Assembly: GCF_030384885.1 (NCBI RefSeq)
Contig: NZ_CP128614.1
Source: Escherichia coli
Lineage (GTDB): Bacteria; Pseudomonadota; Gammaproteobacteria; Enterobacterales; Enterobacteriaceae
DNA length: 64,000 nucleotides
Reading direction: 5' to 3' (one strand)
Position 1 is the first letter of the stretch; each line of letters starts with the position of its first letter. The notes below the pieces were generated by a model. The model saw nothing but the letters and a program-made list of their open reading frames with translations. It was not told the DNA's origin and did not search any database. The translations under genes were made by a program, and so were the position numbers. Shown in pieces: positions 19,565 through 37,053 of the stretch.

Positions 19565-19573
19565 AGGGCTGCA

Positions 19574-19876
19574 TCAGCCAGGCCCGGATATAAATACATG
19601 CTCTGCCAGGTGAGTACCACTGCCCGGTAGCCGAATGATAAGTTTTGATTTCACGGTTGCAATTTCTCCCTCTGGCATCACTGCTCCACGATGCACCCCG
19701 ATCAGCTTAGCGTCTGAAAATGAAGATGCACCGGACCTGCATGAAGCGGAACGGTGCCCAGCTGAGTGTTTGTGGGCACAATGAACCGCAATTTCATGAT
19801 GGGAATGAAAGATGGCTGGTGGCCCGCTGATATGAACGCTTACCCTGCATAACGTTACTAACCACAATCTTTTCAC
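19574..19876 (-). pseudogene. possible degenerate RadC-like (JAB/MPN) remnant
   Basis: 100-aa ORF with VH...AHKHSAG, reminiscent of the RadC AHNHPSG region but with the HxHx7Sx2D signature not intact; weak. Confidence 0.2.
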
Positions 19877-19913
19877 TAAAAGAAAAAAGGGTTCCTCCGC
19901 TTTAGAGGAACCC
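19876..19913 (-). terminator. rho-independent terminator (minus-strand sense), probably the displaced hok terminator
   Basis: stem GGGTTCCTC...GAGGAACCC followed on the minus strand by a U-run (plus strand AAAAAA at 19883-19888); adjoins the IS186 insertion site. Confidence 0.5.
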
Positions 19914-19969
19914 TTTCAAAAGGTGCCGATGGCATACTAATCCACACCCTGAAAAGAGGGGGGTTGCCC

Positions 19970-21309: not shown

Positions 21310-21332
21310 GGGGTTGCCCCCCTCTTTGTCAG

Positions 21333-21491
21333 CTACTTACCGGATTCGTAGGCCAGGATAGCAAATACCTCCCTTGTTCCGTCTTTCATCCGCAACTCGC
21401 AAAGCGAGTTTCGTGTGAGCCAGGTGAATATCAACAGCGTTAAACAAACTATTAATATGCACAAAACAATGGGTTGGTTCGGCATTTTCAT
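21333..21491 (-). CDS. hok: Hok/Gef-family type I toxin
   Basis: 52-aa product [52 protein letters not shown], close to plasmid R1 Hok as recalled; the listed 71-aa ORF is an upstream extension. Confidence 0.7.
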
Positions 21492-21589
21492 GGCCTTCTT
21501 CTCCTTGCATTTAAGCAGGCAAGAGGCTACGCTGTGTGTGACTAGCATACAGGGGCCTCGGGTTGTACTGACCCCAGAAAGTTGGACAG

Positions 21590-22441
21590 TTAAACACGAG
21601 GCATATAGGTCTGATTCCGATATTCAATTGGAGTCAGACCTTTTAATTTCAGGCTAATTCTTCTGCTGTTGTAGTATTCAATATATTCCGTAACAGCATC
21701 CTTCAGCTCGCTTATATTACTGAACTCATCAAGATAAAAACACTCCGACTTTAAGGTTCCAAAGAAACACTCCACCACAGCATTATCCAGACAATTGCCT
21801 TTTCTGGACATGCTTTGTTTAATACCATGTTCTTTAAGGATATTTTGATATCTTCTCATACGATACTGCCATCCCTGGTCAGAGTGCAGAACAGGATGCT
21901 CGTGAGGATTAAGCTTTTTGAATGCCTGATCGAGCATATTCTCGACCATGTTCATCACTGGTCTTTCCGAAAGGCTGTAAGAAATAACTTCGTTGTTGAA
22001 GAGATCTATTACTGGAGACAAATACAGCTTGCGCCCATTGACTGCAAATTCAGTAACATCGGTAACCCACTTCTCGTTTGGCCGCGTAGCCTTGAAATCT
22101 CTTTGGAGAACATTGGGGGCGGTTTGCCCTACCTCTCCTCTGTAAGAGCGGTATCGCTTGACCTTAATCGCTGCCTTCAGTGAGAGGATTCCCATCAGGC
22201 GCTGAACAGCTTTATGGTTAATCTGTTTCCCTTCTCGATGAAGAGACAGCGTTACCCTACGGTATCCGTATCGGCCTCTATTCTCATGATAAATCTCACC
22301 AATACGCTTTTTAACGTCCGCATACTTGTCAGGCTTGCTGAGAGCCTTTAGATGGTAATAAAACGTACTGCGCGGTATCTCCGCAGCCCTGAGAAGCTCA
22401 TCAAGAGGATAAAACTGCCTTAGCTCGTTGAGTACTTTCAC
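21590..22441 (-). CDS. insK: IS150 transposase OrfB (DDE catalytic domain)
   Basis: 283-aa ORF overlapping orfA in the -1 frame; integrase-core motifs ([16 protein letters not shown]) typical of IS3 OrfB. Confidence 0.85.
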
Positions 22442-22959
22442 TTTTTCGTGGGATGAGCTAAGGCTTTCAGCTTTTTTAGATACACAAGCCGCGTTTCAAG
22501 AAATCGAACTTGCCTTTCAAGATCCTCAATGCGTCGGTCTTTTGACAGCTCCAATGCTGATGCCGCTTTTTCTGGATCAACTGATATTGCAATGTTTCTT
22601 TTGGTGCCAATCTTGAGCGCGCGTAAACCAGCTTCTCCGCGCTCTTCATAAACCTTCAGCCACCTGGCTACAGAACCACTACCAGCAAGCATAAAGTGAG
22701 CAGCAGCCTGATTAAGGGACATGTGCTGCTCGATCACCGCTTTCACGACCTTAATACGCAACTCAGGATCAGCACTAACACCTTTAGGTTTGGGAATTAA
22801 ACCTTTTTCTCCATGTTTTTCATAGAGGGCAACCCATGTCCTGACCTGGGTTCGGGGGACACCAAAACGTGCCGAGATGATCCTGTAACCATCATCAGTA
22901 GTGAAGTAGTGATTCACGACTTCAAGGCGCTTTTCAAAAGGGTATTTTGGCTTTGACAT
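22438..22959 (-). CDS. insJ: IS150 transposase OrfA (HTH)
   Basis: 173-aa ORF MSKPKYPFEKRLEVVNHYF... recognised as IS150 InsJ from memory. Confidence 0.85.
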   Translation of the reverse strand: MSKPKYPFEKRLEVVNHYFTTDDGYRIISARFGVPRTQVRTWVALYEKHGEKGLIPKPKGVSADPELRIKVVKAVIEQHMSLNQAAAHFMLAGSGSVARWLKVYEERGEAGLRALKIGTKRNIAISVDPEKAASALELSKDRRIEDLERQVRFLETRLVYLKKLKALAHPTKK

Positions 22960-23291
22960 ATCAGGGGCTATTCCATTTCATCGTCCAACAAAATGGGTGC
23001 AGTACAGGTTAATTGAAAAATTACTCGGGGCTTTCTGCTTTTACCACAGTCAAACAGTGTTACCGCTGGCTGGGGCAAAAGCCTCCAGCACCAGCGTCAT
23101 TATATCACTCTGCCCTGATCAGCCAAACACCCTGCCTGCATAAATCATTGATTTATAATTTATTTGACATGAGTCACTTCCGGTTGTCGGAGACAGTCTT
23201 TTTACACTAAAGAAAAGGGTAACGGGCAGCTGCTTGGTCGGAACATACAGTGCAGTTCCTGCCCGTTTAATTTCCGGATGCAATGGTAGGA

Positions 23292-23897
23292 TCAGGAGGC
23301 ACTGGTTCCGTTGATTAGGGAAAGCTTATGTGCCTGAATACGGCTGTATTCGAGATGGGATGGAATATTACAGATGCGCTCCAGTCGATCATGCAGCCTC
23401 GTGTAGGTCAGTCGATGAATACCGGACATTTCATCAAGTAGCCAGCGCTTGATGTAAGGGTTACAGGAAAGCCGGGCAAGATCGTCGTCATCCACTTCGT
23501 CAAAGAACCAGTACTGCTCCATCGGGACTACCTGAAATATCCACGGCCGGGGATAGTCCCCTGTGACAACCAAAAACCATGCGAGAAAGCATAGACACAG
23601 CTCAACGATCATCAGCATCGAAAATTGCGAATAACTTAGACCAGGCACATAGGGTGAACTATCCGCAACATACCCCCTGAACAATTCCGCCACAAGGTAG
23701 CCCAATAGCGACAAGGCCAGCATCAGGGTCAGGATTAATCCCCCATTAAACGCTACCGAAGCCTTTTGAACCCGATCAGGTGCTGTCCGGCTGCGATAGT
23801 TGGTCACTACTCTTTCTACAAGTGCCCTTATGGCAGCCTGTTCTTTACTGACATCAGCTCCGGAAAAACCGGACGGGCTTTTATTTAATTCAGTCAT
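23292..23897 (-). CDS. membrane protein, unknown function
   Basis: 201-aa ORF with two or three TM helices (GLILTLMLALSLLGYLVAELF, MLMIVELCLCFLAWFLVVT). Confidence 0.5.
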   Translation of the reverse strand: MTELNKSPSGFSGADVSKEQAAIRALVERVVTNYRSRTAPDRVQKASVAFNGGLILTLMLALSLLGYLVAELFRGYVADSSPYVPGLSYSQFSMLMIVELCLCFLAWFLVVTGDYPRPWIFQVVPMEQYWFFDEVDDDDLARLSCNPYIKRWLLDEMSGIHRLTYTRLHDRLERICNIPSHLEYSRIQAHKLSLINGTSAS

Positions 23898-24112
23898 ACC
23901 CCACTCCTGTTATGTGCTCTACTGAACAAACACGTAGATCATACAGAGCTCACGGACGCACTCCTGCCAGATAAAGGAGGGAATTTGGCTGTAAGACGGT
24001 TAGCCAACAGTTCAGGTTATGCGTGGGATCCGGCCAGTCAGAAAGGATTCCGTTATTAACAGGCAAGGTTAAAGGCAGATGGACGTTGAAATTGTGGATG
24101 CTAAAAGGGGTA

Positions 24113-24394
24113 TTACTCTTTTTCCTGCATAGCGGCTTTTTCAGCCCGGGTGGCCAGGCGAGCATTTCCGAAAGGTTCACGGACAAGCAGGGGCTTCTCC
24201 TTCTTCCAGCCCCTGATAGCCGTTTCTCCAAAACGACGTGGTGCATTGCCGTTCCAGCGAGCAATCACATGATTATCATGAATTTCTATAATGACAACGG
24301 GGTGGACAATGACCGTTGTAATGGTGGTATTTCCCATTTTGGTACGGGTTACAGACCAAACCTGCATCCCGGATTCCAGCTGGCTGATTTTCAT
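24113..24394 (-). CDS. hypothetical protein
   Basis: 93-aa ORF. Confidence 0.4.
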   Translation of the reverse strand: MKISQLESGMQVWSVTRTKMGNTTITTVIVHPVVIIEIHDNHVIARWNGNAPRRFGETAIRGWKKEKPLLVREPFGNARLATRAEKAAMQEKE

Positions 24395-24768
24395 ATTATA
24401 TCCTTAAGCCAACACGAACTGCGCCACAAAAATTAATGTGGCGCAATTTACCATAAACAATAAACATCAGATACCCGTGAAGAGATTTCCCTTTATTTTA
24501 AAATTCTTCTGGAGAAAAAATGATATTTCCAGAAGAAGTCAGCGAAATTCAGAAACGGCCATCACAATGGTGCTGCGCTGACGCTGGCGTTCTGCCTTGC
24601 GCTGCCTGCGGCGATAGATCTATTTTGCGCTGACGTAAGGGCAGTCCTCACGGGTATACCAGCAGCAGCCGCAAGGTTCGGGCCGGGGTTTTCCGGCAAG
24701 TCCAAATGGTTTCATCAAGTCACCTTTTTAATATTTTTAATGGCAAGATACTTCCCTAACACATTGTT

Positions 24769-25080
24769 TTATCGCATATAACGCTGTTGCATAAACAGAT
24801 ACAGATAACCCTCAGGAGAAAACATGCAAAGGTTATCAGTGATAACCGCATCCAGATACCGAGTGTCAGTCTGTAAACGTTTTATCACCAGAAAATGTGC
24901 TGCCGCAGCCTTAATGCCAGAACTACCGTTTACAACATTATGTATACCCGCTTCGAATAACGAACGAGCATGAATTACCTTTTCCCGGGCCGCTTCGATC
25001 TCCGCATTAATAACGCATTGCCGCGCCTGGATGACTGCCTCTCCGGTTAAATCGCGGAAATTCATTAGAGATGTGATCAT
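24769..25080 (-). CDS. hypothetical protein
   Basis: 103-aa ORF. Confidence 0.4.
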   Translation of the reverse strand: MITSLMNFRDLTGEAVIQARQCVINAEIEAAREKVIHARSLFEAGIHNVVNGSSGIKAAAAHFLVIKRLQTDTRYLDAVITDNLCMFSPEGYLYLFMQQRYMR

Positions 25081-25302
25081 GATTAACTCTCCAGATTATG
25101 TGGAATCATTATAACAACTGGCATCCCGCCACAAATAACCTGAGAAAAATTCTTTGAAATATTCCTATATATAAGGAATTACAGTCGGAAAAGAAACGAT
25201 GAAATAGCGCCGACCGCTTAAAATCGATAAATTAAAATGGACGGCACTGGAATGAAAAACTGAAAGTAGTAAGACCGTAATTATCCTTCACGGATGTAAG
25301 CT

Positions 25303-25503
25303 TTATAAGAGGAGTACTGGCAAAGCTTTGCCAAGTACTTCGGCGGTTGTGTCTACGATTTTACGGATGTCATCGATCTGCGAAGGCTTATTCAACACCA
25401 CCGTAAAAAGCTCTCCTTCGTTATCAGCCTGCTCGCAGTTTCCGTATCGGCTCCCGTCGTACAGCTGCACAATACGTGACATAGAAGACTTTGTTTGTTT
25501 CAT
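25303..25503 (-). CDS. hypothetical small protein
   Basis: 66-aa ORF immediately downstream of 25543..25767. Confidence 0.4.
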   Translation of the reverse strand: MKQTKSSMSRIVQLYDGSRYGNCEQADNEGELFTVVLNKPSQIDDIRKIVDTTAEVLGKALPVLLL

Positions 25504-25542
25504 GGCTTTGCACCTGCTTTTAGGCAGTTTGGTTACTGGTTA

Positions 25543-25767
25543 TCAGAAGCTGGTTTCATGCGCTTCCGGCTGGGACACGAACTGGTATTTGACGCCGCCA
25601 GGCACACCTACTGCTTCGGCAATAGAGTCGCAAAGCCGCGATAAATCATTTAGTGTCATCGGATATTCAATATCTACAGAATATAAAGCACCTGCATTTT
25701 CAGCATCTTCGATGTTTTTATACTGGGCACTAAATATAGCAATGGTCTGAATTTCGTGGTTATGCAT
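25543..25767 (-). CDS. small acidic protein, paralog of 30732..30971
   Basis: 74-aa ORF sharing the block PMTLNDLSxLCxSxAxAVGxPGGxKY with the 79-aa ORF about 5 kb away. Confidence 0.5.
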   Translation of the reverse strand: MHNHEIQTIAIFSAQYKNIEDAENAGALYSVDIEYPMTLNDLSRLCDSIAEAVGVPGGVKYQFVSQPEAHETSF

Positions 25768-25821
25768 GAACCGGTCCTTATTAAATTATAAAAGCCACCC
25801 GAGAGTGGCCTGAGTTGAAAC

Positions 25822-26025
25822 TTAAATCTGTGAAGTATTTTTGAGAGATTTTTTGCGATCCAGATGCCGGGCAACAATGGTTCCGATAACAAGTAGCATG
25901 ATGACCGCACTGAAGAAGGTGCTGTCAGGGACGCCCTGGAAAAAATCACTGAAACTGTAAACAATAAAAATCAATGCGCAAAAATAGAAAACGATACGAA
26001 CATAAGGGGTAAAAAACATTTTCAT
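25822..26025 (-). CDS. small membrane protein
   Basis: 67-aa ORF with two hydrophobic helices; palindromic motif 141 bp upstream. Confidence 0.45.
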   Translation of the reverse strand: MKMFFTPYVRIVFYFCALIFIVYSFSDFFQGVPDSTFFSAVIMLLVIGTIVARHLDRKKSLKNTSQI

Positions 26026-26165
26026 CGGTTGCCTTCCATTCAGGGAGAATTCTCAGTAATTACATCACACCTGAAGAGAAACTATTTTCGTATAAATGAG
26101 CATTTTCGACATATCAGAGGGGGGGTTTACTCATAAATGAGGTAGTAAGGGTCACACTTGAGGTG

Positions 26166-26176
26166 AAAGTTACTTT
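26166..26176. promoter_or_regulatory. palindromic motif AAAGTTACTTT, copy 4
   Basis: 141 bp upstream of the minus-strand gene starting at 26025; context AAAGTTACTTTCCTGGCTG. Confidence 0.55.
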
Positions 26177-26204
26177 CCTGGCTGCGAACGAACTATCTCA
26201 AATG

Positions 26205-26498
26205 TTAGAGGTGTGCGTTCGCCTTGAGAGCCTCATGCCCTGAGGAGCTCAACTTGAGCCGATAGTATAAACCTGGCTCCAGATGGCTTGCTGGCTGGCA
26301 TAACTCCACGAGGCCGAGCCGGAACAGGACCGGAGAGCTCCTGCACGTCACATCATCAGGATTCCCCATAAACGTACGCCGTTCTCTGGCCCGTCTGAAA
26401 TTGCCAGAGATATCATAGACCGTGCCGGATGCCATCCGTCGTAACACGTAAATCTGTGCCATTGTAAGCTTCTGGGCGGAACTGCTTAAACCTGACAT
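26205..26498 (-). CDS. hypothetical protein
   Basis: 97-aa ORF. Confidence 0.4.
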   Translation of the reverse strand: MSGLSSSAQKLTMAQIYVLRRMASGTVYDISGNFRRARERRTFMGNPDDVTCRSSPVLFRLGLVELCQPASHLEPGLYYRLKLSSSGHEALKANAHL

Positions 26499-26577
26499 AC
26501 CTTCCCCTCCTTATATAAAACAATCCGCCAGCAGCTCGACTGGCGGACAATGTTTGACTGGCAACAGCAAGGACATA

Positions 26578-27069
26578 CTATTTAGTGACAAGTTTGATCT
26601 TGGTTTCACTCATTCGAAGTCGAAACTCCTGAAAACCCTGCTCTACCGCTAACTCCAGCCACTCAACGGGAATGGTATAGCTACAATCAGACCCACCCAA
26701 AGCGGCATCACAAGCGTAATCCCAGTCCTCATCCAGTTTTGGATTCATCCCCTGGGCGTAAGCCACAGTATCGCGGGATGCGGGAGAGCCCTCAAGCTCA
26801 GCATTAGTGATCAGGTATACACCATGACTGTGCGCGAGAAGCACTTTTGGCACCAGATGTGTGCTGGCAATTTTTGAGGATGAGGGAAAGAAAACCCTAC
26901 CAGCTTTACGCGCCTCTTCTTCAGTCTGTCCCTCAGCGTTAAGGAGGGCTCCCCCCGGATAGCATGCCGGGTCATAGATCTGATCTGCGGTGACCGAAAA
27001 CGTTTTTGCGGTGCGAATTTCTTCGATCAGTTTATTAATATCCGCCATTTCAAATACGAGAGTGGTCAC
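26578..27069 (-). CDS. hypothetical protein
   Basis: 163-aa ORF. Confidence 0.45.
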   Translation of the reverse strand: MTTLVFEMADINKLIEEIRTAKTFSVTADQIYDPACYPGGALLNAEGQTEEEARKAGRVFFPSSSKIASTHLVPKVLLAHSHGVYLITNAELEGSPASRDTVAYAQGMNPKLDEDWDYACDAALGGSDCSYTIPVEWLELAVEQGFQEFRLRMSETKIKLVTK

Positions 27070-27073
27070 AGGC

Positions 27074-27421
27074 TTACTCTCCCTCTTCAGTGGACAACAT
27101 CAGATACTTTGTTGCCAGCAGAAGCTCTCCCACATCCTTGAGGGACAATTCAGCTTTGCCTTCTACGGCAAGCTGCAAGCGCTGTCGAATTGCATGAACA
27201 GAATCTGAAGATAAAGATGCCATTTTGCGCAAAACGGCATTAGCCTTTTCTACAGCAGGATACAGAATTTCTGAGTTGGTATTATCTTCGTCATTATCAA
27301 AGATAATTTCAGAATCCATATTGATGTTATCTTCAAGCCAGCTTGAAAGCACTTCAAGTAATGACATCACCTTTTCAATTTGCATATCGCCTCCTCTGTT
27401 AATGTGAAACAAATATAACAA
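27074..27421 (-). CDS. hypothetical acidic protein
   Basis: 115-aa ORF, 5 bp downstream of the previous ORF. Confidence 0.45.
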   Translation of the reverse strand: MLYLFHINRGGDMQIEKVMSLLEVLSSWLEDNINMDSEIIFDNDEDNTNSEILYPAVEKANAVLRKMASLSSDSVHAIRQRLQLAVEGKAELSLKDVGELLLATKYLMLSTEEGE

Positions 27422-27900
27422 AGTGGCTTACCCGGCTAATAACCTGAGCAGAAAGTTTTCGCACTTTGTTTGAAAACAACTTTTCTGCTCAGGTTAATGT
27501 TAAAGTCGCTGTGTAAAAGATAAAGGGCACTAAAGATGATTTAAGCATCAAACAGACTAAATCGGATTCCGTCTTTTATATCGCTTTTAAAATAGAATGA
27601 ATGAAATATAAATTTAGCGTTTATGATTGAACGCTGTAGAGGTTGATTTATCCAGTGATATTCAGTTTGGGGCCTTAAAAAGGTTTTATTTTGGATTCGA
27701 ATTACAAAGGGAGCACCGACATTTTTCTGGGGGCTCCCGCAGAGAAAAAGCGGTGAGGCTATGAAGACGAAGAGGAGGTATTCGACGAAATACTGTATGG
27801 CCACAGGAGAGCTTCAGCACCCATATCCTGCCGTCTCGCTCGCCTGTAATGATTTCAACATGTACAACGTCATACCACGTAGTTGTATTTCTCACTTTGT

Positions 27901-28221
27901 TTATGCTTCCTGACACCGTGTGAACGCAATCTTCGTCTGGATGCGTTCATAGATGGAAAACTGCCTTTCAATGGAACCGGCATTAGACAGTAATTCATGA
28001 AGCTCAGCAGAGTCTGTATCGGGAACGATAGCTACAGAAACTCCATATCTCCGTCCAATTTTGATTAGGTGCGCAAGCTGTTCTTTTTCGGATTCTGTGA
28101 GCATTGCCAGATCTCTTCCGGACACCTGCTCTATAAACGAACCAAGGTTTTTGGGAAAAAAGGGTTCGGCATCAGAGTTATGTGCTGGGCGCGTCTGCGG
28201 CTTATCGAAGCTATTGGGCAT
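27901..28221 (-). CDS. hypothetical protein
   Basis: 106-aa ORF; palindromic motif 152 bp upstream. Confidence 0.45.
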   Translation of the reverse strand: MPNSFDKPQTRPAHNSDAEPFFPKNLGSFIEQVSGRDLAMLTESEKEQLAHLIKIGRRYGVSVAIVPDTDSAELHELLSNAGSIERQFSIYERIQTKIAFTRCQEA

Positions 28222-28372
28222 GAATAGAACCTATACAGTTAGAGAACTGGAGAATGGATAAAGACTCTATGAAAATCAGTTGTGCTACACTCGAATGCTA
28301 ATCAAGCTTTATGATGGCTTTAGTAGGGATGGCCGTCAACTTAAACCGATAAGAAGGGAGCCATTTATCGTT

Positions 28373-28383
28373 AAAGTAACTTT
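28373..28383. promoter_or_regulatory. palindromic motif AAAGTAACTTT, copy 5
   Basis: context AAAGTAACTTTCCCGGATG; 152 bp upstream of the gene starting at 28221. Confidence 0.55.
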
Positions 28384-28400
28384 CCCGGATGATGCTCTTT

Positions 28401-28628
28401 TTACGAAATAAGTTTCTCACACTCCTGTATAAGAGTCGCCCTGGAACGAGATCGACTGGCTTTGCTTAATGAAGAGCGTAGTTGATGTTCATCAACCCCA
28501 TCAGCGATAAACTGACCGATTTTTGTTTCAAGCCGCTGCATTGCCTCGTAAAGCTTGGCATCCGCATTATTTTTAAGAAACCTCAGTATATAATCAGCAA
28601 TAATTTGGACGGGAGTGAACTTATACAT
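28401..28628 (-). CDS. hypothetical small protein
   Basis: 75-aa ORF. Confidence 0.4.
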   Translation of the reverse strand: MYKFTPVQIIADYILRFLKNNADAKLYEAMQRLETKIGQFIADGVDEHQLRSSLSKASRSRSRATLIQECEKLIS

Positions 28629-28855
28629 TATGTATCCTTAAGACGTTGTGTTAAATGATTCAAAAAAATTTATAACCAGACGTAAATTATTATACATAAG
28701 TAAGCACTTTAGCTAACAAGCTGGAGGAGTGAATTTCGGTTAGCAACTATATTTTAGAAGCTGATTGCTGAATAGACAAAGCCCGGCTTACCGGGCATTC
28801 ATTTAATTAGATGCTAGAAATCTGACCCGTCGTCTGACTTTTATTCCAGGCAGAG

Positions 28856-29467
28856 TTAGGAACTAATAATGATGGCCTGGTCAGTTTGAGGAAGCCGGTT
28901 TCCTCTGATAAATGCAGGGTGGTTTAAACGAGAAGAAGAAATGGTCATCGCCAGAAATGTCTCTTCACGCGAACGCAGAAATTCCCCCCATGAATAGGTT
29001 TCCCATACGTCGTGAGAAAGGTCGGATTCCTTTATGTACCGGGATTGCATTGTTGGCTCAAAATCGACAGGGGCTAAACTGTCATAGGATGGATGAACAC
29101 GGTACCCCAATCCCTCCTCCGTCTGATGGTATGCATGTGCCAAAAGGACATCGTGGGAGACCAGGTCATAGTCGTTGTCCTGAACGAGCGTTTTTACGGT
29201 ATGACTAATTTCCCCAAAGCCGTCTATTTCCCAGAGCGTTATCATTGTGAACTCAGCTAAAGTTCGTGGGCTCTTTACCAGAAAGCCATTTAATGCTCGT
29301 CGCCCCTTCAGCATGCCAACGTGGTAGGTCTTGTTGGGATAGGGTTTCATTGCCACCAGCGAATCAGCTTTAAGCTCAAGTGACAATTCAGGGACAGACA
29401 CGGACATGAGAGTACACTTGTTTTTCATATGGTGAAGAATACGTGGCACAAGATGCAGATACATCAT
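28856..29467 (-). CDS. hypothetical protein
   Basis: 203-aa ORF. Confidence 0.45.
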   Translation of the reverse strand: MMYLHLVPRILHHMKNKCTLMSVSVPELSLELKADSLVAMKPYPNKTYHVGMLKGRRALNGFLVKSPRTLAEFTMITLWEIDGFGEISHTVKTLVQDNDYDLVSHDVLLAHAYHQTEEGLGYRVHPSYDSLAPVDFEPTMQSRYIKESDLSHDVWETYSWGEFLRSREETFLAMTISSSRLNHPAFIRGNRLPQTDQAIIISS

Positions 29468-29578
29468 TTTCTCCTTTTATGGATATAACTGGCAGATCCT
29501 CAGCAGCATCAAAATAGTTAATAGACTTTTTTAATTGGTTAACCACTGTTGATTGACTTGTTTTATGTCTCTGAGAAA

Positions 29579-30145
29579 TTATTCGTTTTGTTTCTGTTCG
29601 TTATACTGCTCAAACCAGAAGACGACCGGTTTTACTACAATATGAAGCAAACCAAAACGTTCTGCGGTACGGAAATTCACGCTATATGCGCGAGCCCGTT
29701 CAACCTGTTTGGTAATTTCATTTCTCATTCCTTCAACACTAAAAGCTCCTTTAAAAAGGTTGCAGGGAGCGCATGATGGAAATAAGTTTTCTATTGCATG
29801 CAGTTCAGGGTGCATAACCTTACCCGTACTTCGGGCAACATGAGTTACGCCGCTGCCGACCGGGGCTCTCACCAGTTCAAAGTCGCGTCGAACAGGCTCA
29901 ACATGATCGGCATGCCACCCTTTTTCAGGAAGCTTGCAACCACAATAGGCACAACGCCCCCCAAATTTCATTCGCAGCTCAGCTCGCTGTATTTTAGAGA
30001 TCTTATTTTTAGGTTTTGAGAACCTACCATCAGGTGATTCCGCTTTGGATAACTTTGCTGAGGGCTCAGGTAACTCAACTAAATTCCCGTTGATATTTAT
30101 CACCTTGACCATATCATTTTCCGCCTTTACTAATCTCACGGGCAC
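29579..30145 (-). CDS. HNH endonuclease
   Basis: 188-aa ORF with CAYCGCKL...WHADHVEPV...NLFPSCAPCN (CxxC, H-x-DH, CxxCN), a classical HNH motif arrangement. Confidence 0.6.
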   Translation of the reverse strand: MPVRLVKAENDMVKVININGNLVELPEPSAKLSKAESPDGRFSKPKNKISKIQRAELRMKFGGRCAYCGCKLPEKGWHADHVEPVRRDFELVRAPVGSGVTHVARSTGKVMHPELHAIENLFPSCAPCNLFKGAFSVEGMRNEITKQVERARAYSVNFRTAERFGLLHIVVKPVVFWFEQYNEQKQNE

Positions 30146-30172
30146 AGGAGCTGGCTTAAGTAACCGCTGAAG

Positions 30173-30361
30173 TTAACAGCCACTGACTGCCTCTACCCAG
30201 ACCTTCTGTTTATACTCAATAGGCCACCCCTCTTTATCTGCCCGGATGACGCAATCATTTACCGTGGTGCGTGACCGGATACGAACATCAAGCGGAAGCG
30301 AATCGTTATCCACACGAGCCTGTGCCTCATTTAAAATGCGTAAAAACATCTCTTTGGTCAT
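30173..30361 (-). CDS. hypothetical small protein
   Basis: 62-aa ORF overlapping the next gene by 4 bp. Confidence 0.35.
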   Translation of the reverse strand: MTKEMFLRILNEAQARVDNDSLPLDVRIRSRTTVNDCVIRADKEGWPIEYKQKVWVEAVSGC

Positions 30362-30669
30362 TCAGATACCCCCTCAACTTTGCGAATTTTGATCAGATGA
30401 GGGCGATTCAGTTTACAAAGTTGTTCTGTCGCTTCATCAATCGAATTGAACCGATGAGCCTCTTCGATATTTAAAGTCCAGTATTTCGCTTTCCCTTCTC
30501 CCAGATCGGACTCAAAATAATTTCGCTTTACATCCATTTTTTTAGGCCTGCCATTTATCTTGACGACATTATGTCTGTCATCAAAAAGAAATTCGTCCCC
30601 CTCAAAAGTGATTAATACAAATGGCCCCTCAGGCTTGGAAGTCCGGGGACTTCCCATTTTCAAAGTCAT
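30358..30669 (-). CDS. hypothetical protein
   Basis: 103-aa ORF. Confidence 0.45.
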   Translation of the reverse strand: MTLKMGSPRTSKPEGPFVLITFEGDEFLFDDRHNVVKINGRPKKMDVKRNYFESDLGEGKAKYWTLNIEEAHRFNSIDEATEQLCKLNRPHLIKIRKVEGVSE

Positions 30670-30731
30670 ACTTCAGCCTCTCGATAGAACTCATGAAACC
30701 TCAAATTAAAATGGACTCACACCACACTGAT

Positions 30732-30971
30732 TCAGTATTCCTCCTGAACCCCATTAGGCTCTGTTGTGATTTCATATTTAATACCGCCAGGTGCTCCCAC
30801 AGCGTCCGCGACCGACTCACACAGCAGCGAGAGATCGTTGAGGGTCATTGGGTGTTCAATGTCCAGCGTGAAGAGTTTCCCGGCTTGCTTGGCGGCTGTC
30901 TTGTCAGCATGTTCAGCATTAAAAAGGTATACGGTGTGTTTTTCCTGAGCGGGGGTATTTTGATTTTGCAT
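30732..30971 (-). CDS. small acidic protein, paralog of 25543..25767
   Basis: 79-aa ORF with the shared block PMTLNDLSLLCESVADAVGAPGGIKY; palindromic motif 133 bp upstream. Confidence 0.5.
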   Translation of the reverse strand: MQNQNTPAQEKHTVYLFNAEHADKTAAKQAGKLFTLDIEHPMTLNDLSLLCESVADAVGAPGGIKYEITTEPNGVQEEY

Positions 30972-31103
30972 TGATGATCCTTTTGTTTAGTTCCCCGATT
31001 CCGGGGGTGAGTGAATTAATTTAAATTTATATTTGTCTGGTTTAATTAGAACGTTTCCAGGCTATGCGTAAACAGGTAATGCAAAGGCTGTATCAACAGG
31101 ATT

Positions 31104-31114
31104 AAAGTTACTTT
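31104..31114. promoter_or_regulatory. palindromic motif AAAGTTACTTT, copy 6
   Basis: context AAAGTTACTTTTCTGGATG; 133 bp upstream of the gene starting at 30971. Confidence 0.55.
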
Positions 31115-31220
31115 TCTGGATGCAGCAACGCTTGGACATGATGTCCACATTACATCACGATCAAAGCTAAGTTTTTTTTGTATAACCCCTTCATTTTCGT
31201 GTGTTTCGCGTTTCAGACGC

Positions 31221-33176
31221 TTATACGACCTGCCTGACCATCCTCATCAGAAGGCGGTTTAACAGTCCTTTCGCTGTCGGGCGATTGCTATCGACATAGT
31301 AAAAACCTGTTTTGGTCGTACCGTGAGCACTGCTCAGCACCCTCAGTTCCCAGATAACGTCACGGATAACGCCGCCATTTTCTGGCTTAAGGCATTCAGA
31401 TAAATGGCGCATGAAACGAGCTCTTACGGCACGGTAATAGCGGAACTCCTCTGGCTGGTTAGTATTTTCTTTCACCCGGAGTCGCTGGTTACACAGAGTT
31501 AGAACTGCATCCATCATTCCCGCCTTCAGCTTCGCCTGGATCGCACCTTGTTGCTGTTCCCTCTCACCTTCGAGTAACGTTAAGATTCTTTCTCCGAGTG
31601 CCGTCTTGTTGTGTACGTGCAACTGTACACAGGCAGCTACGCATGCCCAGAATCTGAACTTTTTTATCTGTCCACGCAATTTCCGGGCTACAACCTGACG
31701 GTATGCAGTATCGCTGAGTATTTTAAAACGCCGACTGGCAACCAGCTCTGGAAGCGACACTCTTTCGCCTATCCCCAGGCGGGAAAAGGTTTGTCCCCGT
31801 TGTGCGAGACGATGATAGACAGCGCCCTTCCCTTTTGAAATTCGGACCGCGCCATAACGAAGAAGATACTGAGCAGCAGTCGTTGGAGTAAACTCACCGT
31901 CAGCGATGCTCTGGCGTAACCCGTCGTATTCATGCCAGATAATCCAGGACGCCGTATCTTCTTCAACAGTCAGCTCATCCTCTTCCTCGAATGCCACGAC
32001 GACAGAACTGCTCTCTCCGGTCTTTAGGCTACGTGAAGCCCTGGGGTCAGCCTGCCCGTCAAAATAGGTCATCAGCGGCAACGTATCAGTCAGTCCATCA
32101 TAAGCTGTACCGAACCGGCCTCCGGGCAGTTTCATCCAGAGTGGAGCTGGCATTGGTGTACGGGCCACAGGCAGCATGTCAGGCTCATCCTCAAGAAGGT
32201 CCAGATCGGCCTCTTCCCAGACTCTGCGATAGATCTCAATTGCCCGAAACGGGCGAGGGTTGAAACAGTGCAACGACCAGAGGAAATCAACGTGGATCAC
32301 GTTTGCTTCATGTACAAGCCGAAATTGTGGCTCAGCCATACGACGGTTATAAGCCGTATCGTCCACCTCGCCGGAAAGTAGCTTTCTGCGATGCTTTGCC
32401 GCACGTCTGGCTTCAACATAATCAAGGCTGCAACAGACATGAAAAAGACGTTCAGTCAGGGACGAAGAAAAGATATTGGGTTGAAGACGCACATACCCGC
32501 CTTCGAACACTTTACGACCGATATAATCCCGCAGGCTCCAGTCGTACTGGATCTTAGAAAGAAATCGCTGAAGACGACTTAGGCCTGCCTGATAACCATA
32601 TTTCTCAGGGTCAGTGCGAAGGAGCGTTTCCATTGAATGGTCAACCCCTACGGCTGTGCAAAGCGAGCACCCATATCTAGCCCCACAAGCTGAGGTTCGC
32701 GTGGGTTTCTCCGGCGACCAGATACACTCTCCGGTGGCGTCTTTATAAAGCGTTGCCAGGCTGAAGTTATCCGGCATAAAGCTTGGTAAAGGGAAGCGGG
32801 ATTCGGAACCACAGGCCATTAGAAAAGACCAGATGTCCTGAGTGCGCCACTCCTTTACTGGATAGAGTTCACCACCGTGCTCAGTCAGGGTTACTTTCCT
32901 CGCCTGCCCTCCCATTTTGAGGATATTTCCGGCCCTTCGGGCACTTTCATCATCCCTGGAGCCCAGCATCAGGCATACCCTGCTTCGTACGGATGCCGGG
33001 GCGTTTTTTAGATAACGAGCTTTGGCCTTGCGCAGGGGGGCGATTTTGTAGTCACAAACTACTACCACACTGTTACAGTGTAGAAATTCTGGAAGGCGGT
33101 GCCAGTGTTGGTTTAGGATAATGTTAACAATTTTTCCAGAGTTTTCAGAGAAAAGAGATTTTGAGTGACAAACCAC
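31221..33176 (-). pseudogene. PAPS-reductase-family (DndC/IbrA-like) gene lacking its N-terminal P-loop region
   Basis: 651-aa ORF with GSRDDESARR, EWRTQDIW and CGARYGCSLC motifs of the PAPS-reductase fold but no SGGKDS P-loop; in-frame stop 6 codons upstream of the annotated GTG start (read directly), so the N-terminal part is not encoded here. Confidence 0.5.
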
Positions 33177-33418
33177 TGATGTTTTCCAGAATCACTTTCT
33201 CTTAGAAGATCGATAAAGTCTGTCTATGGGGAGGATCGTCTCCCAGGGTGAAGTCAGTCCACTTCACCGAGTTGCTTCCCCATCGGTGGGTTCTTCAAAA
33301 GGGCAACATGGCCGCCCTCCAGAGGTGAACGTACCTTATGCCTATGTACCAAGCCTTAGATTCCTGATAGTTCTAAGGGCGAGAAATAGCAAACTTACTT
33401 GAAAATTGACTCTGAAAT

Positions 33419-34525
33419 TCAAGCTTCAGCTAGAATAAACTTCCGTTGCTCATCTTCGCATTTATAACATGCGAAATATTTGATTGTTTCCATATCACCA
33501 GTCACATACTCATCACAATGTGGACAGTTAACTGCTGACCATCCTCTATCAAAGCATGAAACACAACTCCACTGACCTTCAATATAGAAAACTGAATTTG
33601 GAGCGTGCTGACATACGTGACAACCAGCGACACATTCGCCACCTTCCTCCCACCAATCATCACCCGTTACATATATGTCGCGACACAATTTTATTAAGAT
33701 ATTTGTGGTGATCTCATGAGCACATTGTGGACATTTATTGATGTCAGGACTGAAAAATTCGAATGGTACTTTACAGTTTGGGCAAGGCAAAGTATCAGTG
33801 ACTTGCTCTACCGCAACGCCCTGCGATTCGCAAACAAGACATTCATAATCATCTCCCCATTTATGAGTATCATTAACTTTACCGGCTTCAAGGCCACATT
33901 GACGGCACTTAACTATTTTAATTTTTTTTAATCTTAAGACGTCAATTTCCTTTGAAAGCTCATTGAATCGGGTGCTGAGGAACTCTTTTTGTTGCAGCAT
34001 TCTCTTATGCACACGCTCAAACTCTTCCTTAAATTTAATAAATTCATCTTTCCATTCAATAGTGAGTAAATTATATAAATGGTGCCATGAAGACCATTGT
34101 TGAGCTACAACCCCTGCTTTATTAGCTTGAGCGCTTGAATATCCAGTGTGTGCAAAGTGAACAATTTGGTTCCTATGCGCACCTAACGTTCTGAACTCAT
34201 CAAGGATACTGTCATCAAGTTTAATGCCAATAACAGTTTTAAGACGTTGAACAGCGTCACTAAAATACACAGAATTAAAGTCACCAACGCTAAATTTTTG
34301 TTTATTAGCTTTGCCAGGATCATCTAATATTAAAGTCCAATGTTCGAGCATTAACCTTGCTTTTAAGAAAAGTTCAATGGCTGTATAGAAATCAACAATC
34401 GAATTTTTGGGTCTTATATTTAAATCATCAATTGACGACTCAAGAAAATCTATAGCATTTATCACTAAAGAATCAAAAAGTTGTTCATTGCTCTGTACTG
34501 TTTGCTTAATGTATGTGCGTGCCAT
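33419..34525 (-). CDS. multi-Cys zinc-ribbon protein, unknown function
   Basis: 368-aa ORF; helical N-terminal half; C-terminal half has at least six CxxC pairs (CRQC, CLVC, CPNC, CPQC, CHVC, CVSC, CPHC, CYKC); very AT-rich coding sequence. Confidence 0.5.
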   Translation of the reverse strand: MARTYIKQTVQSNEQLFDSLVINAIDFLESSIDDLNIRPKNSIVDFYTAIELFLKARLMLEHWTLILDDPGKANKQKFSVGDFNSVYFSDAVQRLKTVIGIKLDDSILDEFRTLGAHRNQIVHFAHTGYSSAQANKAGVVAQQWSSWHHLYNLLTIEWKDEFIKFKEEFERVHKRMLQQKEFLSTRFNELSKEIDVLRLKKIKIVKCRQCGLEAGKVNDTHKWGDDYECLVCESQGVAVEQVTDTLPCPNCKVPFEFFSPDINKCPQCAHEITTNILIKLCRDIYVTGDDWWEEGGECVAGCHVCQHAPNSVFYIEGQWSCVSCFDRGWSAVNCPHCDEYVTGDMETIKYFACYKCEDEQRKFILAEA

Positions 34526-35023
34526 AATGCCTCTTGATTATATTGCCCTTCGAATGTTGAACATTATATCTTTAGAGGCAATATTTTGTCACATCCCACG
34601 ATATTTTGGAGCTGAATTATTTGATCAGGCTTACACAATCTTTCTTCTCTATCCCCATTTACCTTTTGCTCTGTTACCTGCGTTGAAATGGTTGATGACC
34701 CACTAATACTGTACTCTGCCTCTTGTATAAATACATTTCAACATAAGATTGGCAAAGTAATCCTCCATAGTAGCTGCTTGAGTGGTTGATTGTCGGAATA
34801 GTGCATAGCCATTTTGGTCAGCAGAAAGCGCTGTTACCGAATGACTTGATCGTAGTACGTGTCTACTCGCCTACCAGAACTGCTGTCCTCTCATCAACTA
34901 TCTGTATAGGACCATTTGAAACATCAGATATATTTTCAGAAATCTCCTGTTAGCGTGATGGTGACTATCTTAGCTGAGAAGGATTACGAATATATTCTTA
35001 CATCATATTCTTTGAGGTGAAAG

Positions 35024-36247
35024 CTATCTATAATTTTCCAGATAGCAAGTGTCTTTGAATGCATTATAATTGCCAATTTCTTGGTTTATTTCAATTTCAT
35101 AATCTAAGCTGACAATAGGTATTTCAACACCATTTAATAAAAGAGACTCTTGATTTTTCTTCCATTTTTTGTTTTCATTCCATGCTAATTCACTTTTGTT
35201 CTCGGGGTCTCCCATTACTTCAATTTTGATACCTTTTAAAGTAAATGTACAATAAAATGATTTGATGTTTTCTGATGTGGTTTTAAACAACTCCCCTTTG
35301 ATACCAGGGTTGATTAACTTGCATATTTCATTAGCCCCTTTCTCCGTTGTTATGATATCAATATCATTTGCATAAATTTGAACGCCTTGTAAGTACCTAT
35401 TAGCCCCACCAGTTATACTCCAATCCTCCTCAATCGGTTGGAGTAATAATGTTAATTCTGTAATTGCGTCGATCAATTGTTTGCTTTGAAAGTTATTTTT
35501 ATTATAAAGCCGTTGAGCCCAGGTTTGTTTTATTTGCATACTGTGTTTTAAATAAATTGCATTATTAATGCTTGGAGCTGTAAATATCTCATGTTCGTAT
35601 TTAGAATATATGTAAGATAGATATTCTGGTGCTTTGCGATTATTAATCTCTATGAATCCATCTATTTTTTTCATCTCATTGTGGGCGTTGAAAAAACCTG
35701 ACACTTCTGAGAATAAATTATAGAAATTATTTATGACTAGCATCCCAAATATGGCGCGGCTATACTGAAAATCTAAATTATCAGTCAGCGTGGTATACAT
35801 AATAATAATTATACTAACTAGTAGTAGTATTGTTAGTAATAAATAGAATAACTTCTGCTGGAAAGCTTTAATATATAAGATAGAGTTCCAGTATGCATTC
35901 TCTTGTATGAGTGTTATTAACCTCTCTGCACGAAAGCCATTTTTATTTTCCGCATTACCATCAATGTAGAGTCGCTCTCGGTAAAAATTTTCCTCGCCTA
36001 TAATACCTCTCAGCATTTCTAATCTTTTTGTTTCTATAGCCTTAGCTGCATACGAAGTTTTAAAATGCATTGCAAACCAAGTGAGGAGTTGTATTATAAA
36101 CGTGAGGGTTGCAATACCGTAGAGCCAATGAGAATTCAAAAAAATCCCGACGATCGATAAGCAGGAAATCATTAATGTTGAATAACTGATAGACTTAGAT
36201 AAAAAGTCAACTCTATCAAAATAAAAACTACTGTTTTTTGATTCCAT
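35024..36247 (-). CDS. membrane-anchored predicted nucleotidyltransferase (4TM N-terminal domain fused to a Pol-beta-like NTase)
   Basis: 407-aa ORF; about four TM helices in the N-terminal 180 aa; C-terminal ITGGANRYLQGVQIYANDIDI fits the minimal nucleotidyltransferase motif hG[GS]-x(9-13)-DhD; AT-rich. Confidence 0.5.
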   Translation of the reverse strand: MESKNSSFYFDRVDFLSKSISYSTLMISCLSIVGIFLNSHWLYGIATLTFIIQLLTWFAMHFKTSYAAKAIETKRLEMLRGIIGEENFYRERLYIDGNAENKNGFRAERLITLIQENAYWNSILYIKAFQQKLFYLLLTILLLVSIIIIMYTTLTDNLDFQYSRAIFGMLVINNFYNLFSEVSGFFNAHNEMKKIDGFIEINNRKAPEYLSYIYSKYEHEIFTAPSINNAIYLKHSMQIKQTWAQRLYNKNNFQSKQLIDAITELTLLLQPIEEDWSITGGANRYLQGVQIYANDIDIITTEKGANEICKLINPGIKGELFKTTSENIKSFYCTFTLKGIKIEVMGDPENKSELAWNENKKWKKNQESLLLNGVEIPIVSLDYEIEINQEIGNYNAFKDTCYLENYR

Positions 36248-36582
36248 TTCTCTATCTTGCTCACTTTTTTTTGTATTTTTACATACGAATTGACAATGTC
36301 AAGATGTAGGGGGAATAATTTGTTCATAACGCATGGGGAGTAAATAGTTCCTATGAACCAATCATGTCATGATTTTCCACATAACGTGGTGTCAACTACA
36401 AGGCATAATAATCTCAGACATTAGTTCGGATGCTTGTCTCGTAAACTCGAGCTTAAACTTTTAATACTTTAATTGTTATGGCTCAGTCGTTACTGAGAAA
36501 GCTAATTTTGTAAAATAACCACCTACCTTACAGGTGCTAACGGATGCGCAAGCCATTGAATTATCTGGAAAATTCAATGAGT

Positions 36583-37053
36583 TCAATGATTATTTTTTTC
36601 TTCTAATTTTTTTATGACATTCCCATGCTTTTTACCACACCATGCTTGTTTCCTACCCATAATAAGCAAAACCATTGGCTCGGTCGCTTTCAGTCCGGTT
36701 CGCCAAGACCTTAGATCAGTACTTGATGGCTGTGGGAAATCTTCGGGATGCGTATGCCATTCGCCCAAATAGACTAGAAAACCGTCTGATTGCTGAAATA
36801 AGTCATCCACTTTTTGCTGGTGATGTTTGCTTTTTCTTTCTATTCGTAATCGCGATCTTATATCACCTGCGCCTGGTTCTGATATGTGGGTGATGACAAT
36901 GTGTTTCCCACGACGTTCTCCAATAAGGATTCCTCCTGCCTCGGTACTGGCATGATGTAATTGACGATATAAATACAACCGCTGCACAACATCACTCATG
37001 ATGACGACATGATTGTAATCATCATCGATAAAAACTAACTCAGTTATGTTCAT
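36583..37053 (-). CDS. cap3: CBASS Cap3 (JAB/JAMM isopeptidase)
   Basis: 156-aa ORF with EWHTHPEDFPQPSSTD (HxHx7Sx2D JAMM motif); overlaps the cap2 stop by 14 bp. Confidence 0.75.
   Translation of the reverse strand: MNITELVFIDDDYNHVVIMSDVVQRLYLYRQLHHASTEAGGILIGERRGKHIVITHISEPGAGDIRSRLRIERKSKHHQQKVDDLFQQSDGFLVYLGEWHTHPEDFPQPSSTDLRSWRTGLKATEPMVLLIMGRKQAWCGKKHGNVIKKLEEKNNH

What the first reader, a model, noticed from the sequence alone, without database searches (positions are those of the whole stretch)
25543..30971. Two paralogous small acidic proteins 5 kb apart
ORFs 25543..25767 and 30732..30971 share the block PMTLNDLSxLCxSxAxAVGxPGGxKY, and the second has a palindromic motif upstream. 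Duplicated small acidic proteins in a transfer-element cargo region are candidates for anti-defence or DNA-mimic functions.
Basis: seen in the sequence. Interest (0 to 1): 0.38.

Follow-up and report, generated by a model that had tools for sequence, protein, structure and literature searches.

The report
Orphan small-protein paralogues on IncHI plasmids

Summary
ORFs 25543..25767 and 30732..30971, both on the minus strand, encode proteins of 74 and 79 aa that are 50% identical (BLASTP E 2e-26), with pI 4.4 and 4.6. The shared block is kept by selection, not gene conversion: 14 of its 20 identical residues use different codons.

A third, near-neutral paralogue lies at 25303..25503, right after the first.

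Orthologues in IncHI1 and an IncHI1B-type plasmid keep the same gene order and show dN/dS of 0.06-0.32. AlphaFold gives a compact β-α-β-α-β domain (pLDDT 78-80) with a disordered acidic tail.

Best guess, at low confidence: soluble protein-binding factors of the plasmid's establishment gene array, acting through the invariant loop and second helix. The DNA-mimic idea is weakly supported. Interest is modest.

The parts
25543..25767 (-). Paralogue A: 74 aa, pI 4.4, net charge -8 (WP_000551490.1)
   Evidence: ORF and translation. Annotated CDS. BLASTP against B gives E 2e-26. AlphaFold gives β-α-β-α-β with pLDDT 80 and a disordered tail at residues 67-74. dN/dS between the IncHI1 and IncHI1B-type orthologues is 0.06.
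30732..30971 (-). Paralogue B: 79 aa, pI 4.6, net charge -7 (WP_001180999.1). It is the first gene downstream of the PAPS-reductase-family gene.
   Evidence: AlphaFold gives pLDDT 78 and the same topology as A. Orthologue dN/dS is 0.23-0.32.
25303..25503 (-). Paralogue C: 66 aa, pI 5.2, net charge -1 (WP_000814954.1).
   Evidence: hmmsearch of all window ORFs gives E 3.2e-7 with the A/B-type profile and 9.5e-25 with the broader profile; no other window ORF scores. Its counterpart in locus L005 scores 3.5e-15.
25822..26025 (-). Small basic membrane protein with two transmembrane helices (67 aa, pI 9.7). It is the conserved upstream neighbour of A-type genes.
   Evidence: Homologues lie directly upstream of the A-type gene in IncHI1, the IncHI1B-type plasmid, L005 and L003 (BLASTP E 1e-4 to 9e-15). 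pI.
25792..25811 (-). GC-rich stem-loop followed by a T-run, between the membrane-protein gene and A. It looks like an intrinsic terminator or attenuator, 24 nt before A's ATG.
   Evidence: Terminator scan. Stem-loops occupy the same place in IncHI1 and the IncHI1B-type plasmid with changed sequence (z -3.1 and -3.5).
30993..31006 (-). Stem-loop of 5 bp (CCCCG GAAT CGGGG), 22 nt before B's ATG.
   Evidence: Sequence and RNA fold at -9.7 kcal/mol. IncHI1 and the IncHI1B-type plasmid have a different 6-bp stem (GCCCUG/CAGGGC, GUCCUG/CAGGGC) at the same position.
31221..33053 (-). 3' part of the PAPS-reductase-family gene (about 794 aa when intact), the conserved upstream neighbour of the family in every lineage. 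In this window it is cut at 33053/33054 by a 20.4-kb insertion.
   Evidence: Intact CDS in L002 at 31221..33605, with a PF01507 hit at E 1.3e-5. Break point. The same adjacency is seen in L003 and L005-L008.

Best explanation
A, B and C are three real protein-coding genes of one orphan family. The domain is about 60 residues, soluble and α/β. The family is confined to the backbone of IncHI-type (MOBH relaxase, F-type pilus) megaplasmids of Enterobacterales.

Shown here:
- The paralogy is ancient.
- All three copies are under purifying selection.
- Constraint is extreme on the loop and second helix (E-[YH]-P-M-T-L-N-D-L-S-x-L-C-[ED]-S-[VI]-A-x-A).
- The predicted fold is a compact β-α-β-α-β domain, with a disordered acidic tail in A and B.
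- Gene order is fixed, downstream of a PAPS-reductase-family gene.

Inferred: these are cytoplasmic protein-binding factors. They would dock onto one conserved partner, or closely similar partners, through the invariant loop-helix face. The diverged N-terminal half and the tails would give each paralogue its own specificity.

They belong to the long, almost unidirectional array of small accessory genes next to Tra1, which also holds orphan methyltransferases, Hok, RelE/ParE, HNH, DUF3085 and DUF957. The most likely job is therefore to modulate or inhibit a host protein when the plasmid establishes itself in a new cell. That is an anti-defence or host-takeover type of inhibitor, not a DNA mimic.
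For: - **Paralogy and selection.** BLASTP E 2e-26. In the shared block, 14 of 20 identical residues use different codons, and synonymous sites between A and B are saturated. Orthologue dN/dS is 0.06-0.32.
- **Third paralogue.**
- **Fold.** Two independent AlphaFold runs give the same topology at pLDDT 78 and 80, with low-confidence termini. There is no signal peptide or transmembrane segment (sequences).
- **Context.** The array holds methyltransferases, Hok, RelE/ParE, HNH, DUF3085 and DUF957, almost all on one strand. Distant relatives sit in similar arrays with an Mrr_N-methyltransferase, Hok, Lar_restr_allev and GmrSD_N.
- **Distribution.** 1,299 PLSDB plasmids with about two detected copies each, all large Enterobacterales plasmids, 1,209 typed conjugative and 90 non-mobilizable; MOBH/MPF_F in the records examined; none in 50,697 phage records. 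Only 21 hits among 1.84 billion representative proteins.
- **Analogy.** Small size, acidity, orphan status and several paralogues per element are typical of known small protein inhibitors carried by mobile elements (general knowledge).
Against: - There is no functional evidence. No match was found to any Pfam, NCBIfam or PHROG family, and none to PDB sequences (best E 0.21).
- Strong conservation is not what an arms race with host defences usually leaves. A is 80% identical between IncHI1 and IncHI2 although synonymous sites are saturated.
- No classical leading-region marker (ssb, psiB, ardA, klcA) is annotated in the array.
- oriT lies left of mobI, outside the window. By the usual rule that the relaxase enters last (PMC11541004), this array would be on the lagging side and on the wrong strand for expression from single-stranded DNA. 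I could not find the direction of IncHI transfer in the papers I could search.
- Folding the intergenic DNA as single strands gave no convincing Frpo-like structure (z -1.4 to -2.6).
Confidence: 0.35

Rival explanations
1. A membrane-associated module. The basic 67-aa membrane protein (two transmembrane helices) and the acidic A protein, with C, work as a pair. The soluble protein would bind the basic cytoplasmic tail of the membrane protein. The pair could be a small-membrane-toxin and antidote addiction module, or an exclusion or immunity device.
For: The order membrane protein, A, C (or membrane protein, A) is conserved in five diverged lineages, and the membrane proteins are homologous. 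The charges are complementary: pI 9.3-10.1 against 4.1-4.5. In the IncHI1B-type plasmid, B is also preceded by an unrelated 164-aa protein in which I read two hydrophobic, probably membrane-spanning, segments. Other addiction genes (hok, relE/parE) share the array.
Against: In IncHI2, B has no membrane-protein partner; the 164-aa gene is a pseudogene in IncHI1 and absent in IncHI2. A terminator-like hairpin separates the membrane-protein gene from A. The adjacency may simply be inherited backbone order among related plasmids. Toxicity of the membrane protein has not been tested.
Confidence: 0.2
2. DNA-mimic anti-restriction proteins of the Ocr, ArdA or Ugi type, which occupy the DNA-binding groove of a nuclease or restriction enzyme.
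For: A- and B-type members are acidic: pI 4.0-4.6, net charge -7 to -13. The genes lie near methyltransferase genes and, in relatives, a Lar gene.
Confidence: 0.08
3. Accessory subunits or substrates of the adjacent 794-aa PAPS-reductase-family enzyme, for example a carrier or specificity factor in a DNA- or RNA-modification pathway.
For: A family member lies within one or two genes downstream of this enzyme in every lineage examined. A cysteine in the second helix is conserved in nearly all A and B types.
Against: The cysteine is Val in C types and Ser in P0044. A and C lie 5 kb away from the enzyme gene in IncHI1 and IncHI2. There is no C-terminal Gly-Gly and no β-grasp fold of the known sulfur carriers. 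In this window the enzyme gene is destroyed by an insertion while A, B and C stay intact, though that event looks recent.
Confidence: 0.1
4. Plasmid housekeeping modulators, for example small regulators of transfer, partition or copy number that act on a plasmid-encoded protein.
For: The genes are strict backbone genes with slow protein evolution, next to Tra1.
Against: No DNA-binding motif or family was detected. I found nothing in the papers I searched that links these ORFs to transfer.
Confidence: 0.15

Closest known systems
Small protein inhibitors carried by mobile elements, such as phage T7 Gp2 (RNA polymerase inhibitor, 64 aa) and phage T4 Dmd (antitoxin, 60 aa)
   Same: Similar size (60-80 aa). 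Each is a compact sheet-plus-helix domain. Both appear as weak Foldseek matches: 4lk0_M with TM 0.41/0.52 and 5hy3_B with TM 0.37/0.45. From general knowledge rather than a test here: they are acidic and act by binding a host protein.
   Different: The matches are not significant (E 1.5-3.5, probability 0.13-0.25). hhalign of the family profile against T7 Gp2 gives probability 0.1%. From memory, not tested here, Gp2 has one helix fewer. The family is absent from phage records.
Leading-region anti-defence islands of conjugative plasmids (Samuel et al. 2024, PMC11541004)
   Same: A long, nearly unidirectional array of small genes, mostly uncharacterised, mixed with orphan DNA methyltransferases and toxin-antitoxin genes, close to the transfer origin.
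   Different: The array is on the relaxase side of oriT, separated from it by about 10 kb of Tra1 genes. No ssb, psiB, ardA or klcA is annotated. No single-strand promoter was recognised. The direction of IncHI transfer is not known to me.
DNA-mimic proteins (Ocr, ArdA, Ugi)
   Same: Small and acidic, encoded on a mobile element.
   Different: Much lower charge density. One paralogue is neutral. There is no structural or sequence similarity.
Ferredoxin-like (RRM-like) small domains such as Cas6/Csf5, Cas2, PurS and HMA domains
   Different: The model has three strands, not four. All scores are below significance, and sequence identity is 6-13%.

Membership tests
DNA-mimic proteins (Ocr / ArdA / Ugi type) | Very high density of surface Asp/Glu arranged like a DNA backbone | tested here: inconclusive
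   A and B have 15% Asp+Glu and net charge -8 and -7, part of it in a disordered tail. Paralogue C has net charge -1. No coordinates were available to compute a surface.
DNA-mimic proteins (Ocr / ArdA / Ugi type) | Sequence or fold similarity to a known mimic | tested here: not met
Known anti-restriction families (ArdA, KlcA/ArdB, ArdC, Lar/Ral) | Match to the family profile | tested here: not met
   Pfam, NCBIfam and PHROGs scans at E up to 1 returned nothing, apart from one PHROG of unknown function at E 0.16.
Leading-region anti-defence island | Located in the first-transferred DNA next to oriT, on the side away from the relaxase | tested here: inconclusive
   oriT must lie in the 758-bp gap left of mobI. 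The array is on the relaxase side, 10-45 kb away. The direction of IncHI transfer was not found in the papers I could search.
Leading-region anti-defence island | Genes share one orientation and sit with methyltransferase and toxin-antitoxin genes | tested here: met
   In L002 coordinates 10335-45663, all but four genes are on the minus strand. The array includes DNA methyltransferases, Hok and RelE/ParE.
Leading-region anti-defence island | Single-strand (Frpo-like) promoters | tested here: inconclusive
   Folding three intergenic regions as single-stranded DNA gave z -1.4, -2.2 and -2.6, with no long promoter-like hairpin recognised.
T7 Gp2-like RNA polymerase inhibitors | Profile or fold similarity to Gp2 | tested here: not met
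   hhalign probability 0.1%. Foldseek E 3.5.
Toxin-antitoxin pair (small membrane toxin plus soluble antidote) | Conserved adjacency of the two genes | tested here: met
   The membrane-protein gene and the A-type gene are adjacent in five lineages. B lacks such a partner in IncHI2.
Toxin-antitoxin pair (small membrane toxin plus soluble antidote) | Toxicity of one partner, neutralised by the other | not testable with these tools
   Needs expression experiments.

The most novel reading that the evidence does not exclude
A, B and C are a previously unrecognised family of anti-defence or host-takeover proteins specific to IncHI megaplasmids. All three would dock through the same invariant loop-helix face. 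The diverged halves would aim them at different recipient immune or DNA-processing proteins, or couple them to the neighbouring PAPS-reductase-like enzyme. This would also imply that the 35-kb unidirectional array next to Tra1 is the functional early-expressed region of MOBH plasmids, even though it lies on the relaxase side of oriT.
Probability: 0.2. Interest if true: 0.6.

Novelty: new member of a known kind. Interest (0 to 1): 0.3.

Why it matters
IncHI1 and IncHI2 plasmids are major carriers of multidrug resistance. The records matched here include an mcr-named plasmid and carry sul3, cmlA1, aadA and aph(3')-Ia.

Roughly 35 kb of their conserved backbone next to Tra1 consists of small genes with no known function. 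This work shows that three of those genes form one strongly constrained family with a clear candidate interaction surface. That gives a concrete handle for asking what this array does, and a small target set for deletion, pull-down and multimer-prediction experiments.

If the family proves to be an establishment or anti-defence factor, it would help explain how these very large plasmids enter new hosts. It could also help settle which side of oriT is functionally "early" in MOBH plasmids. If not, it remains one of many orphan plasmid families.

Tried and rejected
**Gene conversion as the cause of the shared block.** Rejected. Most identical residues use different codons, and synonymous sites between A and B are saturated.

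**Spurious ORFs.** Rejected. dN/dS is 0.06-0.32, gene order is conserved in three IncHI subgroups, and each gene has a ribosome-binding site.

**Known families.** Pfam, NCBIfam, PHROGs and PDB sequence searches all came back empty.

**T7 Gp2 homology.** This was suggested by a motif resemblance (xTLxD...VPxG) and a weak Foldseek hit. hhalign gave probability 0.1%.

**More paralogues in the window.** A profile search of all ORFs of at least 35 aa found only A, B and C.

**A remnant of the 164-aa membrane-protein gene upstream of B.** None found by tblastn.

**The shared 10-mer GTGATGTAAT.** It occurs upstream of the membrane-protein gene and upstream of B. These are the only two exact copies, and the enrichment is marginal: 11 matches with up to one mismatch against 4.5 expected. 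I did not pursue it.

**Single-strand promoters in the intergenic DNA.** Inconclusive.

**Literature.**
- No paper cites the protein accessions.
- The R27 Tra1 paper (PMC134963) is not in the paper library I could read.
- No source for the direction of IncHI transfer turned up.
- The early-conjugation transcriptome paper covers only IncI1 and F.
- DUF3085 is reported only as enriched in broad-host-range plasmids and adjacent to RadC.

**tblastn of the most distant member (P0044) against plasmids.** No hit at E of 1e-3 or better.


Full report
**What the window is**

The 8 kb around the finding is 100% identical to hundreds of large conjugative plasmids of E. coli, Salmonella, Enterobacter and Klebsiella. 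PLSDB types the two records I examined as IncHI2A, MOBH relaxase, MPF_F. Window positions 1-33053 are base-for-base identical to NZ_CP031850.1 (pKP121-1-mcr) from record position 168653.

The window starts inside mobI. It runs through the Tra1 relaxase operon (mobH, traD and others, plus strand, to about 10 kb). It then enters a long run of small genes, almost all on the minus strand. Most are 'hypothetical'. They are interspersed with Hok, DNA methyltransferases, RelE/ParE, an HNH protein, DUF3085, DUF957, DUF6012 and a 794-aa PAPS-reductase-family protein.

The transfer origin must lie in the 758-bp gap just left of mobI, outside the window. The trh pilus genes diverge on its other side.

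**Checking the observation**

Both ORFs are real and lie on the minus strand. RefSeq annotates them as hypothetical proteins WP_000551490.1 (A, 25543..25767, 74 aa) and WP_001180999.1 (B, 30732..30971, 79 aa). BLASTP gives 50% identity over 64 residues with no gaps, E 2e-26.

The 30 residues before it are only 10/30 identical. Both proteins are acidic, with pI 4.40 and 4.62 and net charge -8 and -7.

**A third paralogue**

A profile built from the family was searched against every window ORF of at least 35 aa. It also picks up 25303..25503 (-), a 66-aa annotated gene only 39 nt downstream of A. The score is E 3e-7, rising to 1e-24 with a broader profile. Nothing else in the window scores. This copy (C) is nearly neutral, with pI 5.2 and net charge -1.

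**Are these real genes, and why is the block so alike?**

IncHI1 (L009) and an IncHI1B-type Citrobacter plasmid (L010) carry orthologues of A, B and C in the same order. Between these two, dN/dS is 0.06 for A, 0.23 for B and 0.16 for C. Against IncHI2, synonymous sites are saturated or nearly so (dS about 1 or more), yet A keeps 80% amino-acid identity.

Within one plasmid, A and B share the block at the protein level, but 13-16 of the identical residues use different codons. The similarity is therefore an old duplication held by strong purifying selection, not recent gene conversion. The constrained segment is E-[YH]-P-M-T-L-N-D-L-S-x-L-C-[ED]-S-[VI]-A-x-A.

**Fold**

I ran AlphaFold2 on B with 8 sequences and on A with 22 sequences. 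Both give the same compact β-α-β-α-β domain, with pLDDT 78 and 80 and pTM 0.60. The ends are low-confidence, including the acidic C-terminal tail of A and B. The invariant block is the loop after strand 2 plus the whole of helix 2.

From the helical periodicity, both the buried face (L44, L47, L50, V54) and the exposed face (N45, D46, S48, E52, S53) are conserved between A and B. This is an inference from the sequence, and it points to a functional surface.

**Relatives and distribution**

- No Pfam, NCBIfam or PHROG family matches, and no solved structure matches by sequence.
- The exhaustive profile search of 1.84 billion representative proteins returns 21 hits, mostly fragments or frameshifted copies of A and B.
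- The indexed search of 5.8 billion proteins returns 32, and 103 with a broader profile. Those with a source name are called 'hypothetical'; every organism named is an Enterobacterales species.
- tblastn finds the family in 1,299 of 72,556 PLSDB plasmids, at about two places per record. All are 170-410 kb plasmids of Enterobacterales; 1,209 are typed conjugative and 90 non-mobilizable. It is in none of 50,697 phage records.

**Conserved neighbourhood**

Two distant members (P0043 and P0044, 35-42% identical to A) lie in metagenomic and genomic contigs. There the order is: PAPS-reductase-family gene, a 67-68-aa protein with two transmembrane helices, the family member, and in L005-L008 a C-type member. 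These sit in one-directional arrays that also hold an Mrr_N-methyltransferase, Hok, Lar_restr_allev and GmrSD_N genes.

The small basic membrane proteins (pI 9.3-10.1) are homologous across lineages (E 1e-4 to 9e-15). In the window this protein is encoded at 25822..26025, directly upstream of A.

In IncHI1, the IncHI1B-type plasmid and IncHI2, a block of about 5 kb separates the enzyme gene from the membrane-protein, A, C module. The block begins with B and contains HNH, DUF6012, DUF957 and DUF3085. The simplest history has the order enzyme, membrane protein, A, C as ancestral, with B arriving by duplication or import together with that block. This is inference.

In the IncHI1B-type plasmid, B is preceded by an unrelated 164-aa protein with two hydrophobic, probably membrane-spanning, segments (my reading of the sequence). 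That gene is a pseudogene in IncHI1 and absent in IncHI2.

**The 'palindromic motif'**

Upstream of B there is a 5-bp GC stem-loop (30993..31006), 22 nt before the ATG. IncHI1 and the IncHI1B-type plasmid have a different 6-bp stem at the same position.

A is preceded by a terminator-like stem-loop plus T-run (25792..25811). This is again conserved in position, with changed sequence, in IncHI1 and the IncHI1B-type plasmid. L003 has a 9-bp stem there.

These look like ordinary intercistronic hairpins, acting as partial terminators or mRNA-stability elements. They do not look like operator sites.

**What it most likely does**

No tool gave a functional link, so the mechanism is inferred from anatomy and context. 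My preferred reading rests on these features:
- The protein is small, soluble and strongly constrained.
- One face is invariant while the rest has diverged.
- There are two or three paralogues per plasmid.
- A and B carry flexible acidic tails.
- The genes reside in an array rich in methyltransferase, toxin-antitoxin and nuclease-related genes.

I read these as protein-binding factors that act on a conserved partner during plasmid establishment, that is, an anti-defence or host-modulating inhibitor. Confidence is about 0.35.

Against this, the slow protein evolution is unlike a typical arms-race gene. No classical leading-region marker is annotated nearby. By the usual rule that the relaxase enters last (PMC11541004), the array would be on the late-entering side. 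If transfer instead runs from oriT through Tra1, the array would have exactly the orientation expected for expression from the transferred strand. I could not find the direction of IncHI transfer in the papers I could search, and scans for single-strand promoters were inconclusive.

**Rivals**

1. A functional pair with the basic membrane protein, as a toxin-antidote or immunity device. Conserved adjacency and opposite charge support it. B's lack of a partner and the hairpin between the two genes weaken it.
2. A DNA mimic. This is weak: acidity is moderate, part of it sits in the tail, C is neutral, and no mimic-like fold was found.
3. A partner of the PAPS-reductase-family enzyme. Adjacency and a mostly conserved cysteine support it, but no carrier-protein features are present.
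4. A plasmid housekeeping modulator.

A motif resemblance to phage T7 Gp2 was tested and not supported.

**Verdict**

The 'cargo' label is wrong. 'Anti-defence candidate' remains a reasonable but untested guess, and 'DNA mimic' is unlikely. This is an uncharacterised, lineage-restricted backbone family of clinically important plasmids. It is a useful lead for experiments, but not surprising in itself.

Noticed in passing
window 33054..53414: A 20.4-kb insertion relative to the common IncHI2 backbone splits the 794-aa PAPS-reductase-family gene. Window 1-33053 equals L002 1-33053, and window 53415-64000 equals L002 33051-43626. Only one PLSDB plasmid (NZ_CP053569.1, Enterobacter cloacae from chicken, 381 kb) holds the whole insert. 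Parts are 94% identical to Klebsiella plasmid regions annotated as CBASS (cGAS/DncV-like nucleotidyltransferase, cGAMP-activated phospholipase, E2/UBC), a DEAD/DEAH helicase, an HTH regulator and others. NZ_CP053569.1 itself is annotated with a diguanylate cyclase, an HTH regulator and an MbcA/ParS/Xre antitoxin. It looks like a defence-island-like cargo inserted just upstream of paralogue B. The 3-bp overlap at the junction could be a target-site duplication; I did not check.
   Followed up: partly
window 27440..27496: A strong, nearly perfect long hairpin (stems of 15 and 6 bp: AACCTGAGCAGAAAGTTTTC...GAAAACAACTTTTCTGCTCAGGTT) lies in the 515-nt gap upstream of the DUF957 gene. It dominates the single-strand fold of that region (z -2.6). 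It could be a terminator, an operator or a single-strand DNA signal.
   Followed up: no
window 26059..26068 and 31149..31158 (minus strand): The 10-mer GTGATGTAAT occurs exactly twice in the window. One copy is upstream of the small membrane-protein gene that precedes A; the other is in the region upstream of B. Allowing one mismatch gives 11 sites against 4.5 expected, and 1 of 100 shuffles reaches this. It may be a shared promoter or regulator site, or chance.
   Followed up: partly
window 24113..24394 (minus strand): PLSDB's resistance-gene prediction (rgi) labels this 93-aa hypothetical backbone protein as 'Brucella suis mprF, defensin resistance, 100% identity'. From memory, MprF is a much larger multi-pass membrane enzyme (not checked here), and Pfam finds nothing in this protein. 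The label looks like a database artefact.
   Followed up: partly
window 10335..33053 and 53415..64000; L002 10335..45663: About 35 kb of IncHI backbone next to Tra1 is an almost purely one-directional array of about 45 small genes. These genes converge on the relaxase operon. Most have no family assignment. Whether this is the early-entering region of MOBH plasmids appears not to have been settled in the papers I could search.
   Followed up: partly
window 26205..26498 (minus strand): An unannotated 97-aa ORF sits in the 550-nt 'intergenic' gap between the DUF3085 gene and the small membrane-protein gene. IncHI1 has an annotated 86-aa gene at the equivalent place (L009 9870..10130). I did not compare the two.
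   Followed up: no
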